A DNA stretch of 15,254 nucleotides from a virus. Each line of letters opens with the position of its first letter. Position 1 is the first letter of the stretch. This document shows, one piece after another, positions 1 to 10,090 of the stretch. The DNA is taken from UHGV virus genome UHGV-0297988; one strand, written 5' to 3'. The notes beneath the pieces are model-generated. The model ran no database searches. It was given only the letters and a program-made list of their open reading frames with translations, and was not told where the DNA came from. The translations under genes and the position numbers were made by a program.

Positions 1-242
1 ATATCGAATGTGATTACAATCGGTGGCGGCGGCACAGTTGGTGTGGCGGCCTCAGTCCGGAACAATTTGAAAACCAGAACCTCGCTTAGGCCTGTGTCCA
101 TATTACGTGGGTAGGATCAGAACTCCTTCTGCGCGAGTGTGCGGGAATAATCAAAAACGATGCACACCGGGGTTACCGGGTACACATATTTCATCATGCC
201 AGCGAGTCCGGTTCTGGCACGGAAGAAACCGGACGTTATGAT

Positions 243-668
243 TTAGTGCGGAAATATTTGTGTAGTGTTCTGAATGTTCTCAGTAAAGAGTAATGAATTA
301 TCAAAGGTATAGTAATACCTTTTGTTTTCGTGGATATTTGTAATCCATCTGAAAACCCCTGCTGTAGCAAGATTTTTCCTGTATTCGTAAAATGATAACT
401 CTCCTGATTTGAATCCTTTTAATGTGGCTTCTATAAGGCATTTATTTTTTGAAAATCTTACATTTACAACCTTACCCTGTCCTTTTATTAAAACCGTATT
501 ATCGTTTTCAAGAACAAGATGAATATTCTCTGTGGCTAAATAGTAAATGTAATGTGAGACATTGTGACGTTTTAGTTCAGAATAAAACCAGTGATAGTTT
601 AAATTATTTCGCACTTTATCGAATATTTGTTTAAAAATGGCAACCTGAGCCATTGTAGTACCTTCCAT
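243..668 (-). CDS. Hypothetical 141-aa protein in a low-GC moron-like segment; possibly DUF1398/YbcV-like (tentative)
   Basis: Intact 141-codon ORF on the minus strand; region is visibly AT-rich compared with the flanking phage genes. Family assignment is from memory of similar prophage proteins near cos and is not verified. Start codon not confirmed; the overlapping + strand ORF 449..634 is treated as spurious. Confidence 0.55.
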
Positions 669-710
669 GTGATATGAAGGTACCTAGTCTGCACGATTAT
701 CTAAATTGCT

Positions 711-944
711 TCAATCTGGTCTGACCTGCTTTCTGAGCAATTCAGTAATGTCATTCTTTTCTTTGTTTGCTTCAGGCGAAACTCTTTTTTCTGAGCACAG
801 TCTTCGGCGGCAGGCTTCAATGACCCAGGCTGAGAAATTCCCGGACCCTTTTTGATCAAGAGCGATGTTAATTTGTTCAATCATTTGGTTAGGAAAGCGG
901 ATGTTGCGGGTTGTTGTTCTGCGGGTTCTGTTCTTCGTTGACAT
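711..944 (-). CDS. Small basic protein, YlcI/DUF3950-like, possibly ribbon-helix-helix DNA-binding
   Basis: 77-aa ORF about 200 bp from cosN on the opposite strand. Basic N-terminus (MSTKNRTRRTTTRN) followed by a strand-helix-helix-like pattern (IRFPNQMIEQINIALDQKG...FSAWVIEACRRRL). Lambda and DLP12-type prophages carry a near-identical small gene at this position (recalled, not aligned). Confidence 0.6.
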   Translation of the reverse strand: MSTKNRTRRTTTRNIRFPNQMIEQINIALDQKGSGNFSAWVIEACRRRLCSEKRVSPEANKEKNDITELLRKQVRPD

Positions 945-1113
945 GAGGTTGTCCCGTATTCAGTGTCGCTGATTTGTATTGTCTGAAGTTGTTTTTACGT
1001 TAAGTTGATGCAGATCAATTAATATGATACCTGCGTCATAATTGATTATTTGACGTGGTTTGATGGCGTAGATGCACGTTGTGACATGCAGATGATAATT
1101 ATTATCATTTTGC

Positions 1114-1120
1114 GGGTCCT
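1114..1120 (+). promoter_or_regulatory. Candidate cosQ (packaging termination element), GGGTCCT
   Basis: Heptamer GGGTCCT about 24-30 bp upstream of the cohesive-end sequence, where lambda cosQ lies. Exact cosQ boundaries are recalled from memory and uncertain. Confidence 0.4.
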
Positions 1121-1137
1121 TTCCGGCGATCCGACAG

Positions 1138-1161
1138 GTTACGGGGCGGCGACCTCGCGGG
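1138..1161 (+). other. cosN terminase nicking site; 12-nt cohesive end GGGCGGCGACCT at 1144-1155
   Basis: Exact match to the lambda cohesive end GGGCGGCGACCT at 1144-1155, flanked by lambda-like sequence (CAGGTTACG upstream, CGCGGGTTTTCGCTATTTATGAAAATTTTCCGG downstream). Confidence 0.9.
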
Positions 1162-1195: not shown

Positions 1196-1213
1196 CGTTT
1201 CCGTTCTTCTTCG
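1196..1213 (+). promoter_or_regulatory. cosB R3, terminase small subunit (gpNu1) binding element
   Basis: CGTTTCCGTTCTTCTTCG resembles the R1 repeat CGTTTCCTTTCT and lies between cosN and the Nu1 start, as in lambda cosB. Confidence 0.6.
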
Positions 1214-1252
1214 TCGTAACTTGATGTTTTTATTTAAAACACCCTCTGAAAA
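1214..1252 (+). promoter_or_regulatory. cosB I1 region, likely IHF-bent AT-rich spacer
   Basis: AT-rich stretch (TAACTTGATGTTTTTATTTAAAACA) between R3 and R2, matching the position of the lambda IHF site I1. I could not match the IHF consensus cleanly. Confidence 0.4.
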
Positions 1253-1267
1253 GAAAGGAAACGACAG
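1253..1267 (-). promoter_or_regulatory. cosB R2, gpNu1 binding element (inverted relative to R1)
   Basis: GAAAGGAAACGACAG is the exact reverse complement of the R1 element at 1293-1307. Confidence 0.65.
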
Positions 1268-1292
1268 GTGCTGAAAACGGGCTTTTTGGCCT

Positions 1293-1307
1293 CTGTCGTT
1301 TCCTTTC
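1293..1307 (+). promoter_or_regulatory. cosB R1, gpNu1 binding element
   Basis: CTGTCGTTTCCTTTC, about 26 bp upstream of the Nu1 start codon; forms a perfect 15-bp inverted repeat with R2. Confidence 0.65.
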
Positions 1308-1332
1308 TCTGTTTTTGTCCGTGGAATGAACA

Positions 1333-1852: not shown

Positions 1853-1878
<26 letters not shown>
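1333..1878 (+). CDS. nu1: Terminase small subunit gpNu1
   Basis: 181-aa ORF MEVNKKQLADIFGASIRTIQNWQEQGMPVLRGGGKGNEV... recognised as lambda Nu1 with an N-terminal helix-turn-helix; first gene downstream of cosB. Confidence 0.96.
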
Positions 1879-5559
<3,681 letters not shown>

Positions 5560-9698: not shown

Positions 9699-10090
9699 AA
9701 CACACTGACATTCGTGCCGCAGTGCTGGATGCACTCGAGCAGCATGAACACGGGGCGACGCTGTTTGATGGTCGCCCCGTTGTTTTTGACGAAGAGGATT
9801 TTCCTGCGATCGCGGTTTATCTGACGGATGCAGAGTATACCGGTGAAGAGCTGGATGCAGATACCTGGCGGGCCACGCTGCATATTGAGGTGTTTTTACC
9901 GGCACAGGTACCGGATTCAGAGCTTGATCAGTGGATGGAAAGCCGGATTTACCCGGCGATGACTGCGATCCCGTCACTGGCAGGACTGATTACCACGATG
10001 GTTACGCAGGGCTATGAGTATCGTCGTGATGACGATATGGCGTTATGGAGTTCTGCAGATCTGACTTATTCCATTACATACGAGATGTGA
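9695..10090 (+). CDS. U: Tail tube terminator protein gpU
   Basis: 131-aa [46 protein letters not shown]...; ATGA overlap with the Z stop; lambda gpU length. Confidence 0.94.

What the first reader, a model, noticed from the sequence alone, without database searches (positions are those of the whole stretch)
243..944. Low-GC, antisense two-gene cassette immediately upstream of cos (moron-like)
Two same-strand genes are oriented opposite to the late operon: a 77-aa basic, possibly ribbon-helix-helix-like protein (711-944), then 42 bp later a 141-aa protein (243-668) in visibly AT-rich DNA. Being antisense to late transcription and of different base composition is the usual signature of lysogen-expressed morons such as bor. 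A small DNA-binding protein followed by a larger partner also superficially resembles autoregulated two-gene modules (toxin-antitoxin-like or defence-like), but that is speculation. This is the only part of the window that does not look like core virion machinery.
Basis: partly seen in the sequence, partly recalled or inferred. Interest (0 to 1): 0.55.

Follow-up and report, generated by a model that had tools for sequence, protein, structure and literature searches.

The report
Known lambdoid accessory genes beside cos
The two backward-facing genes next to the phage's DNA-packaging site are real but already catalogued, widespread, uncharacterised prophage genes (the YbcV/YdfO and YlcI/YnfO families) that travel independently of each other, so they are an ordinary accessory insert and not a toxin-antitoxin or defence pair.

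Summary
Both minus-strand ORFs exist. The 141-aa ORF is AT-rich (GC 0.315 against 0.563 in the late genes, z = -8.8). cosN lies 199 bp to the right of the 77-aa ORF's start.

The larger protein is a full-length DUF1398 member, 79% identical to E. coli YdfO (PDB 2HH8). Its likely start is Met6 at position 653, giving 136 aa. The smaller protein is a DUF3950 / YlcI-YnfO protein with an Arc/Mnt-like ribbon-helix-helix pattern.

The same block matches DNA in 5,323 of 5,426 complete E. coli genomes (ybcV-ylcI in DLP12, ydfO-ynfO in Qin) and in lambda itself.

Both genes are under purifying selection, but they are not an obligate pair:
- Divergent chromosomal DUF1398 genes never have the RHH gene nearby.
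- 155 phage records carry the RHH gene and only 43 carry DUF1398.
- Lambda separates the two genes with a ~570-bp insert.

Published knock-down, deletion and overexpression data show neither essentiality nor obvious toxicity.

Best reading: a leftward, moron-type accessory unit made of two independently mobile genes. One is a small DNA-binding regulator. The other is a soluble protein of unknown activity. "Moron-like" is partly supported; the toxin-antitoxin or defence reading is not. Novelty and interest are low.

The parts
152..197 (-). Terminator-like element at the 3' end of the leftward unit: a G+C-rich hairpin (GUGUACCCGG-UAACC-CCGGUGUGC) followed by CAUCGUUUUUGAU.
   Evidence: RNA fold of window 150-250 (-). 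The whole 101-nt fold is only modestly better than shuffles (z = -1.85). The consensus scan did not call it, so the assignment is inferred. The block is alignable with lambda.
243..653 (-). DUF1398 gene (YbcV/YdfO family), 136 aa from the ATG at 653. The longest ORF extends to 668 (141 aa). Soluble basic protein of unknown activity.
   Evidence: Pfam PF07166 E 3.3e-43, model 1-119/119. 79% identical to PDB 2HH8 YdfO, E 1.4e-69. 100% identical to proteins of phages Kati, Chlobot, PhiR49_1 and ev099. dN/dS 0.18-0.35. SD GGAAGG lies before the ATG at 653 only; pI 9.4; no hydrophobic segment (max KD19 0.39). GC 0.315.
714..727 (.). Palindrome ATCTGGTCTGACCT (core GGTCnGACC), 61-74 bp upstream of the DUF1398 start. 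It overlaps the last codons of the small gene and marks the mosaic junction with lambda. It corresponds to the PdhR-box-like site reported at ybcV and ynfO/ydfO in K-12.
   Evidence: Single occurrence in the window, expected 0.06. Homology with lambda breaks immediately after it. A gSELEX PdhR peak sits at the same sequence in DLP12 and Qin, and ybcV mRNA is 10-fold lower in a pdhR mutant (PMC7660256). Its role in this phage is inferred.
711..944 (-). DUF3950 / YlcI-YnfO gene, 77 aa. It has a conserved basic N-terminal arm plus a probable ribbon-helix-helix core (codons 1-50, window 795-944), followed by a variable C-terminal tail (711-794).
   Evidence: Pfam PF13132 E 5.8e-21. NCBIfam NF041551 35.7 bits against a cut-off of 30. 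The alignment shows residues 1-50 conserved and the tails unrelated. AF2 predicts helices 19-32 and 34-53, preceded by the NIRFP segment. hhalign against Arc aligns NIRFP with NLRWP, E 0.02. 15 of 19 relatives hit the PHROG HicB-like family and 6 of 19 hit the Arc-like repressor family, all weakly. dN/dS 0.04-0.10. pI 10.6, with 6 K/R and no D/E in the first 20 residues.
945..1143 (-). Non-coding interval between the small gene's start and cosN. It is the presumed site of the leftward promoter. It contains an 8-bp inverted repeat, ATCAATTA (1014-1021) / TAATTGAT (1039-1046), flanking a TATCAT hexamer on the minus strand; this is a candidate operator only.
   Evidence: Inverted repeat I7. Sequence read on the minus strand. 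The interval is nearly identical to lambda. The scan found no consensus sigma-70 promoter on the minus strand. This upstream DNA is not conserved in Stx-phage copies of the gene. Promoter and operator are inferred, not shown.

Best explanation
This is the cos-proximal accessory region common to lambda-like prophages. It is a leftward transcription unit, antisense to the late operon, made of two genes that are each conserved but move independently.

The 77-aa YlcI/YnfO-type protein is most likely an Arc/Mnt-style ribbon-helix-helix DNA-binding protein. Its basic N-terminal arm and beta-strand would contact DNA as a dimer. It probably regulates its own leftward promoter, which would lie between cos and its start codon.

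The DUF1398 protein (YbcV/YdfO type, 136 aa) is a soluble, basic alpha/beta protein of unknown biochemical activity. It is carried as horizontally acquired AT-rich DNA and has its own upstream control element, the GGTCnGACC palindrome reported as a PdhR site in K-12. The unit appears to end at a hairpin-U5 terminator near 152-197.

The unit is dispensable for lytic growth and for the host. It is expected to be expressed, if at all, from the resident prophage under particular host conditions. That makes it a moron-type accessory gene set, not a coupled toxin-antitoxin or defence module.

Shown: gene identity, purifying selection, the compositional anomaly, independent distribution of the two genes, and the mosaic junctions.

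Inferred: DNA binding and autoregulation by the small protein, the promoter positions, H-NS silencing and PdhR control in this phage, and expression in the lysogen.
For: - Family membership and a solved homologue.
- GC 0.315 against 0.563, z = -8.8.
- Purifying selection on both genes.
- The block matches DNA in 5,323 of 5,426 complete E. coli genomes, with a median of 4 places per genome. The query also spans cos and the start of Nu1, so this figure overstates the cassette's own spread. The pair itself is found in lambda, DLP12 and Qin-type prophages.
- The cargo between Rz and this block varies: bor, KilA-N, Rha, GIY-YIG/T5orf172, IS3. That is typical of a moron hot spot.
- Mosaic junctions lie at the palindrome and after codon ~50 of the small gene.
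- A terminator-like hairpin with a U-tract lies downstream.
- RHH-type secondary structure and an Arc-register motif.
- Literature: lambdap78 (DUF1398) is non-essential by CRISPRi (PMC10695390). ybcV::kan is viable (PMC3945230). ybcV overexpression is tolerated (PMC2853380). ybcV and ydfO mRNAs are detectable in K-12 cryptic prophages and respond to conditions: PdhR-dependent (PMC7660256) and induced 12- to 117-fold by an ionic liquid (PMC4077768).
Against: - No consensus sigma-70 promoter was found on the minus strand.
- No strand-specific expression data exist for this phage or for lambda lysogens. The classical lysogen-expressed lambda genes listed in the literature are cI, rexAB, lom and bor only (PMC7067206).
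- The RHH assignment rests on sub-threshold similarities. Foldseek found nothing significant, and a PDB profile search found nothing.
- No operator shared between lambda-type and Stx-type copies was found.
- The biochemical function of DUF1398 is unknown. The AF2 model was poor (pLDDT 50) and the fold search was uninformative.
- The small gene's constant position next to packaging genes hints at a role that the plain moron picture does not explain.
Confidence: 0.55

Rival explanations
1. The small RHH protein is the functionally important, position-locked element. On this view it is a regulator tied to the lysis/packaging junction, acting for example on late read-through transcription into the head genes, on cos-proximal promoters, or on packaging. 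DUF1398 would be a passenger moron inserted downstream of it.
For: - The RHH gene sits antisense and directly upstream of the packaging genes in lambda-type phages (Nu1-A). It holds the same position in Stx phages that have an unrelated HNH-TerS-TerL module and no DUF1398.
- It is in 155 phage records against 43 for DUF1398, and at 9,861 places in 4,184 E. coli genomes.
- Purifying selection on its core is very strong, dN/dS 0.04-0.10 at dS ~0.8-1.6.
- It is also listed in capsid-forming PICIs of Enterobacter (PMC13612085).
Against: - Upstream DNA is unrelated between the two phage types and no shared operator was found.
- No motif is shared with the promoters of neighbouring KilA-N or Rha genes.
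- As far as I know, lambda cos function has been defined without any requirement for this ORF. This rests on established knowledge and was not tested here.
- The conserved position could simply reflect recombination hot spots near cos (PMC3945230).
Confidence: 0.2
2. The two genes form an autoregulated toxin-antitoxin-like or anti-phage defence module, with the RHH protein as antitoxin or regulator and DUF1398 as toxin or effector.
For: - Gene order is a small DNA-binding protein followed by a larger protein on the same strand, 42-57 bp apart.
- There is a weak PHROG hit to HicB-like antitoxins.
- The location is a prophage accessory hot spot.
- 79 of 80 near-identical viral contigs keep the pair.
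Against: - The pairing is lineage-specific. All divergent DUF1398 genes (ycgX type; Citrobacter, Klebsiella, Kluyvera, Raoultella, Salmonella) lack the RHH gene, and their neighbours differ.
- Most RHH copies lack DUF1398.
- Lambda and DLP12 separate the pair by ~570 bp carrying an opposite-strand gene.
- There is no PADLOC match and no toxin-family match.
- ASKA overexpression of ybcV is viable (PMC2853380).
- E. coli K-12, the standard phage-sensitive host, carries three DUF1398 genes (ybcV, ydfO, ycgX; PMC3509220).
Confidence: 0.05
3. DUF1398 is a virion or envelope component, as the database names 'head protein' (PHROG 413, RefSeq phage records) and 'putative envelope protein' suggest.
For: The PHROG 413 label and the annotations on lambda, HK629, HK630, DE3 and Kati records.
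Against: - It is encoded antisense to the late operon.
- It is non-essential for plaque formation by CRISPRi (PMC10695390).
- A paralogue, ycgX, lies outside prophages in most E. coli, and members occur as chromosomal singletons in other Enterobacteriaceae.
- It has no signal peptide or hydrophobic segment.
- The homologue's structure was solved in solution by NMR (2HH8).
Confidence: 0.02
4. The ORFs are decaying or hitch-hiking DNA, retained only because they lie next to cos.
For: The 5' half of the small gene and the DNA up to cos are nearly identical between this window and lambda, as expected for recent recombination near cos (PMC3945230).
Against: Both ORFs are intact in thousands of copies. 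They show dN/dS well below 1, including between copies whose flanks are unrelated.
Confidence: 0.03

Closest known systems
E. coli K-12 ydfO-ynfO (Qin prophage) and ybcV-ylcI (DLP12 prophage); lambda lambdap78 plus the unnamed 64-aa YlcI-like ORF
   Same: They belong to the same two families, lie on the same strand relative to the late genes, and hold the same position between the lysis genes and cos-Nu1. The Qin-type arrangement, with adjacent genes and a 77-aa RHH protein, matches the window. The DUF1398 protein is 75-88% identical and the RHH core is more than 94% identical.
   Different: Lambda and DLP12 carry a ~570-bp insert between the two genes. It encodes lambdap79/ybcW on the other strand and gives the RHH protein a different C-terminal tail. 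In this window an IS3 sits 123 bp beyond the DUF1398 stop codon, where lambda has bor.
Lambda bor and lom (classical morons)
   Same: Bor in particular is also antisense to the late operon, in the same Rz-to-cos interval. Both bor and lom are dispensable for lytic growth.
   Different: Bor and lom are outer-membrane proteins shown to be expressed in lysogens (PMC7067206). The proteins here are cytoplasmic, and their expression in lysogens has not been demonstrated.
P22 Arc and Mnt (ribbon-helix-helix repressors of the immI region)
   Same: They are small basic proteins with an N-x-R-[FWM]-P strand motif followed by two helices. They are encoded within the late region of a lambdoid phage, and Mnt is antisense to late transcription and expressed in the lysogen (established knowledge). 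hhalign puts the window protein in the same register as Arc.
   Different: The similarity is sub-threshold (E 0.02; Mnt 0.24). No divergent antirepressor operon lies next to the gene here. No operator is shared with neighbouring KilA-N or Rha genes. Dimerisation and DNA binding are untested.
Type II toxin-antitoxin modules with RHH antitoxins (for example RelBE, CcdAB and ParDE, and HicAB systems whose HicB carries an RHH domain)
   Same: The order of a small RHH-like gene followed by a larger gene on the same strand, inside a mobile element.
   Different: The partners are not conserved together, the ORFs are not coupled, there is no toxin-family similarity, and the downstream protein is tolerated on overexpression.

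Membership tests
Pfam DUF1398 (PF07166) / YdfO-like | Profile score above the gathering cut-off over the whole domain | tested here: met
   147 bits against a cut-off of 22; model positions 1-119 of 119. All 16 diverse relatives also match.
Pfam DUF1398 (PF07166) / YdfO-like | Clear homology to the solved family member YdfO (PDB 2HH8) | tested here: met
   phmmer E 1.4e-69, residues 1-140 aligned.
DUF3950 (PF13132) / NCBIfam YlcI_YnfO_N (NF041551) | Profile scores above the curated cut-offs | tested here: met
   74.5 bits against 25; 35.7 bits against 30.
Ribbon-helix-helix (Arc/MetJ) superfamily | Strand-helix-helix topology with a short turn (G-x-S/T/N) before helix B | tested here: inconclusive
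   AF2 monomer: helices 19-32 and 34-53 with G33-S34 between them, pLDDT 82-84 in this part. The NIRFP segment before helix A is modelled as coil, as expected for a strand that forms only in the dimer.
Ribbon-helix-helix (Arc/MetJ) superfamily | Significant sequence or structure similarity to known RHH proteins | tested here: inconclusive
   hhalign against Arc E 0.02 and against Mnt E 0.24, both in the expected register. PHROG HicB-like E 0.005 in 15 of 19 members; Arc-like repressor E >= 0.08 in 6 of 19. Foldseek against PDB found nothing with E < 8. The PDB profile search had no hits.
Ribbon-helix-helix (Arc/MetJ) superfamily | Homodimer that binds repeated DNA sites | not testable with these tools
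   No multimer prediction or binding assay is available. A candidate inverted repeat at 1014-1046 is only a lead.
Type II toxin-antitoxin / two-gene defence module | The two genes co-occur across the families' range | tested here: not met
   No RHH gene lies within +/-4 kb of any divergent DUF1398 gene. RHH is in 155 phage records and DUF1398 in 43. Stx phages carry the RHH gene alone.
Type II toxin-antitoxin / two-gene defence module | Tightly coupled ORFs in one operon | tested here: not met
   The gap is 42-57 bp here. It is about 660 bp, with an opposite-strand gene in it, in lambda and DLP12.
Type II toxin-antitoxin / two-gene defence module | Similarity to known toxin, antitoxin or defence protein models | tested here: not met
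   PADLOC gave only a chance-level Csx23 hit (E 0.025) for DUF1398 and nothing for the RHH protein. The HEPN_AbiA_CTD hit (E 0.014, below cut-off) appears in 1 of 16 relatives.
Type II toxin-antitoxin / two-gene defence module | The downstream protein is toxic unless neutralised | not testable with these tools
   Literature only: the ASKA ybcV clone is viable with a glycogen phenotype (PMC2853380). The Keio ybcV deletion is viable (PMC3945230).
Moron (independent accessory transcription unit in a prophage) | Base composition differs from the flanking phage genes | tested here: met
   GC 0.315 against 0.563, z = -8.8; GC3 0.30 against 0.57-0.61.
Moron (independent accessory transcription unit in a prophage) | Present or absent between otherwise related phages, at a module boundary | tested here: met
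   DUF1398 is absent from Stx phages that keep the RHH gene. The cargo between Rz and cos varies.
Moron (independent accessory transcription unit in a prophage) | Own promoter and terminator | tested here: inconclusive
   A terminator-like hairpin with U5 lies at 152-197. No consensus minus-strand promoter was found. Only weak candidates were read by eye.
Moron (independent accessory transcription unit in a prophage) | Expressed from the repressed prophage | not testable with these tools
   ybcV and ydfO mRNAs were measured in K-12 cryptic prophages (PMC7660256, PMC4077768). The assays were not shown to be strand-specific.
Phage head protein (PHROG 413 label) | Encoded within, and co-oriented with, the morphogenesis operon, and restricted to phages | tested here: not met
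   It is antisense to the late genes. Chromosomal non-prophage paralogues are widespread. It is non-essential by CRISPRi (PMC10695390).

The most novel reading that the evidence does not exclude
The YlcI/YnfO-type RHH protein may be a dedicated regulator of the lysis-to-packaging junction. It is kept antisense and directly upstream of the terminase genes in phages with unrelated packaging modules (lambda Nu1-A and HNH-TerS-TerL), and is also reported in capsid-forming PICIs. Its core is under very strong purifying selection while its flanks are swapped. It could control antisense transcription against the late operon, or influence packaging-gene expression in the prophage state. That function has not been described for lambda, despite decades of study of this region.
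Probability: 0.12. Interest if true: 0.5.

Novelty: already known. Interest (0 to 1): 0.2.

Why it matters
The practical value is mainly in cleaning up annotation. These are among the most common uncharacterised prophage genes in E. coli, and lambda itself carries them.

- They should not be read as a toxin-antitoxin or defence pair.
- The labels "head protein" and "putative envelope protein" on DUF1398 are unsupported.

The one open point with some biological interest is why a strongly conserved Arc-like protein sits backwards in front of the packaging genes of unrelated lambdoid phages. A start-codon mutant and strand-specific transcriptomics in lambda would settle that cheaply.

Tried and rejected
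1. Structure route for DUF1398. The AF2 model built from a shallow alignment was poor (pLDDT 50; TM 0.42 to 2HH8). Foldseek against the PDB returned only 2HH8 and noise. I drew no functional inference from it.

2. Structure and profile route for the RHH protein. Foldseek found nothing significant, and the PDB profile search found nothing. Only sub-threshold Arc and HicB-like signals remain.

3. Shared operator. No k-mer beyond chance expectation is shared between the surroundings of lambda-type and Stx-type RHH genes. None is shared between RHH-upstream DNA and the upstream regions of neighbouring KilA-N or Rha genes. I dropped the idea of an Arc/Mnt-like immI circuit controlling an adjacent antirepressor.

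4. The HEPN_AbiA_CTD hit (E 0.014) is found in 1 of 16 relatives only, so I treated it as chance.

5. The hairpin around the DUF1398 start (658-683) is not conserved in lambda. I dropped it as a regulatory element.

6. Rfam found only sub-threshold miRNA-family matches, on the cosB inverted repeat.

7. The literature claim that YdfO overexpression protects against oxidative stress (PMC4077768) traces to YfdO of prophage CPS-53 in the cited paper (PMC3105296). I discarded it.

8. The >1000-fold rise of ybcV with T4 MotB in BL21(DE3) comes together with lambda S and R. It may be late read-through on the other strand (PMC7827196). I did not use it as evidence for leftward expression.

9. The first genome scan, using a 16-sequence alignment, failed for lack of a conserved stretch. 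I repeated it with 6 sequences.
Full report
**What is there**

The window is the left part of a lambda-like late region. Nu1 (1333-1878; Pfam Phage_Nu1, E 5.5e-101), terminase A (1853-3778) and the head and tail genes all run on the + strand. The linear lambda record J02459 aligns up to window position 1143, and GGGCGGCGACCT begins at 1144, so cosN lies at 1143/1144.

The compositional claim holds. GC is 0.315 for 243-668, against 0.563 +/- 0.028 in same-size windows of the late region (z = -8.8). It is 0.444 for 711-944 (z = -3.4).

**Identity**

The larger protein matches Pfam DUF1398 over the whole model (E 3.3e-43). It is 79% identical to E. coli YdfO, whose NMR structure is PDB 2HH8. The smaller protein matches DUF3950 (E 5.8e-21) and NCBIfam YlcI_YnfO_N above cut-off.

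The proteins are 99-100% identical to database entries, including those of phages Kati, Chlobot, PhiR49_1 and ev099.

The DNA block 120-1340 matches in 5,323 of 5,426 complete E. coli genomes, with a median of four places per genome. Because this query also spans cos and the start of Nu1, the figure overstates the spread of the cassette itself. The block corresponds to ybcV-ylcI in DLP12, ydfO-ynfO in Qin, and lambdap78 plus an unnamed 64-aa ORF in lambda.

The probable start of the larger gene is the ATG at 653 (136 aa). It has a GGAAGG Shine-Dalgarno while the ATG at 668 has none. Gene callers use 136 aa, and lambda lacks the upstream ATG.

**Are they real genes?**

Yes. Nei-Gojobori dN/dS is 0.18-0.35 for DUF1398 between the window, lambda/DLP12 and Qin-type copies. 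It is 0.04-0.10 for the first 50 codons of the small gene between lambda-type and Stx-phage copies, at dS 0.8-1.6.

In the small gene, homology between those phage types starts at the ATG and fades after about codon 50. The upstream DNA is unrelated and the C-terminal tails differ.

**Is it a two-gene module?**

The evidence says no.

- A scan of one genome per GTDB species found DUF1398 essentially only in Enterobacteriaceae. Every copy at 70% identity or more whose contig reached far enough upstream had the YlcI-type gene upstream, apart from one (L033). None of the 30-odd divergent copies had one within +/-4 kb. These include the ycgX type and members in Citrobacter, Klebsiella, Kluyvera, Raoultella, Pseudocitrobacter and Salmonella diarizonae. 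Their neighbours are unrelated: yeeE/yeeD-like, bluR, csp-like and others.
- The converse also holds. tblastn finds the small gene in 155 phage records and DUF1398 in 43.
- In Stx phages (Pankowvirus WGPS8, JLK-2012) the small gene sits alone. It is antisense and 42 bp from the start of an HNH-TerS-TerL packaging module unrelated to Nu1-A.
- In complete E. coli genomes the RHH core occurs at 9,861 places in 4,184 genomes. Full-length phage-type DUF1398 occurs in 3,011 genomes. Nearly every other genome has only a partial match, and the sampled ones are all to chromosomal ycgX.
- Lambda and DLP12 split the pair with a ~570-bp insert encoding lambdap79/ybcW on the other strand. The junction falls exactly after the palindrome TCAATCTGGTCTGACCT.
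- PADLOC has no meaningful hit.
- Published data point the same way. lambdap78 is non-essential by CRISPRi (PMC10695390). ybcV::kan is viable (PMC3945230). The ASKA ybcV clone is viable with a glycogen phenotype (PMC2853380).

Near-identical viral contigs do keep the pair (79 of 80). That only reflects their close relatedness.

**What the small protein looks like**

It is very basic: pI 10.6, with six K/R and no acidic residue in the first 20 positions. AF2 gives helices 19-32 and 34-53, separated by G33-S34 and preceded by NIRFP, with pLDDT 82-84 in the core. This is the strand-helix-helix layout of Arc/MetJ proteins.

hhalign against P22 Arc aligns NIRFP with NLRWP (E 0.02; Mnt E 0.24). Of 19 relatives, 15 hit a HicB-like PHROG and 6 hit the "Arc-like repressor" PHROG, all weakly. 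Foldseek and a PDB profile search gave nothing significant.

I therefore treat the RHH assignment as likely but unproven.

**Regulatory anatomy (inferred)**

- On the minus strand, a G+C-rich hairpin followed by CAUCGUUUUUGAU lies at about 152-197, 46-91 nt past the DUF1398 stop codon.
- The palindrome at 714-727 is unique in the window, with 0.06 expected by chance. It is conserved with lambda up to the mosaic junction. It is the sequence reported as a PdhR gSELEX site at ybcV and ynfO/ydfO, where ybcV mRNA fell 10-fold in a pdhR mutant (PMC7660256).
- Upstream of the small gene, an 8-bp inverted repeat (1014-1021 / 1039-1046) flanks a TATCAT hexamer.
- The consensus scan finds no minus-strand promoter.
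- The AT-rich DUF1398 DNA is the kind H-NS silences. The absence of transposon insertions in ydfO in a TraDIS study, despite its being non-essential in Keio (PMC5821084), would fit protein occlusion. That paper does not mention H-NS.

**Context**

The Rz-to-cos interval is a variable cargo site. It holds bor in lambda and DLP12, KilA-N in PhiR49_1 and Stx phages, Rha in strain SCU-105, and a GIY-YIG/T5orf172 nuclease in others.

In this window the right end of an IS3 occupies 1-119, and homology to related phages starts at 120. A contig with exactly this arrangement (L160) shows IS3, a T5orf172 gene, a second IS, and then the lysis genes.

**Verdict**

"Moron-like" is partly supported: composition, orientation, mosaicism, dispensability and a terminator-like end all fit, but the promoter and lysogen expression are not shown. 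The toxin-antitoxin or defence idea is not supported.

The genes are already known and annotated as uncharacterised families, so novelty and interest are low.

One thing remains mildly interesting. The small Arc-like gene is conserved much more strongly than DUF1398 is. It also keeps its backward position directly in front of the packaging genes in phages with unrelated terminases.

Noticed in passing
window 1-119: The right end of an IS3 element: the transposase C-terminus, its stop codon, and a terminal inverted repeat ending ...GGTAGGATCA. It is inserted 123 bp beyond the DUF1398 stop codon. Homology to related phages (Kati, PhiR49_1, lambda) begins at position 120. Contig L160 has the same arrangement and shows a T5orf172/GIY-YIG gene and a second IS between this IS3 and the lysis genes.
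   Followed up: partly
loci L012-L048; also many 3.5-kb ENA contigs: 'Genomes' of unrelated taxa (Kitasatospora, Flavobacterium, Pedobacter, Cohnella, Brevibacillus, Arcanobacterium 'plasmid' and others) carry lambda's DUF1398-RHH region on contigs of ~3.5 kb or at the ends of ~48.5-kb contigs. This looks like contamination by lambda control DNA. From my own knowledge, the 3.5-kb size fits the nanopore control strand taken from lambda's right end. It inflates the apparent taxonomic range of both families.
   Followed up: partly
window 243-668; PHROG 413; RefSeq phage records such as NC_001416, NC_019711 and NC_049953: DUF1398 is labelled 'head protein' (PHROG 413, propagated to RefSeq and pharokka-style annotations) or 'putative envelope protein'. 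The gene is antisense to the late operon, soluble, non-essential, and has chromosomal paralogues. Both names appear to be annotation artefacts.
   Followed up: yes
L002 3317-3523 (lambda) and L158 3197-3403 (DLP12 ybcW); absent from the window between 668 and 795: Lambda's lambdap79 (ybcW in DLP12) lies in the ~570-bp insert that this window lacks. A 2026 preprint reports it as the trigger of the Vulcan NADase defence. Escape phages lose it by recombination with Qin, which yields the arrangement seen in this window (bioRxiv 10.64898/2026.09.04.749371). A phage with this window's arrangement would lack that trigger.
   Followed up: partly
window 1196-1308: Repeats CGTTTCCGTTCT (1196-1207), AAGAAAGGAAACG (1251-1263, inverted) and CGTTTCCTTTCT (1297-1308), plus a 26-nt inverted repeat (1252-1277 / 1283-1308), lie between cosN and Nu1. 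From established knowledge of lambda, these are the cosB R3, R2 and R1 Nu1-binding sites. The only Rfam matches in the region (sub-threshold miRNA families) fall on this hairpin and are spurious.
   Followed up: no
literature: PMC4077768 against PMC3105296: The statement that YdfO overexpression increases oxidative-stress resistance cites a paper that in fact reports YfdK, YfdO and YfdS of prophage CPS-53. It is a gene-name mix-up (ydfO versus yfdO).
   Followed up: yes
L154 2594-3228 and L155 2429-3201 (Stx phages): In Stx phages the YlcI-type gene starts 42 bp from the start codon of a divergently oriented HNH endonuclease gene that heads the HNH-TerS-TerL module. Any promoter for the small gene would therefore have to overlap the HNH coding region. 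Downstream neighbours are KilA-N or TonB-like genes on the late strand.
   Followed up: partly
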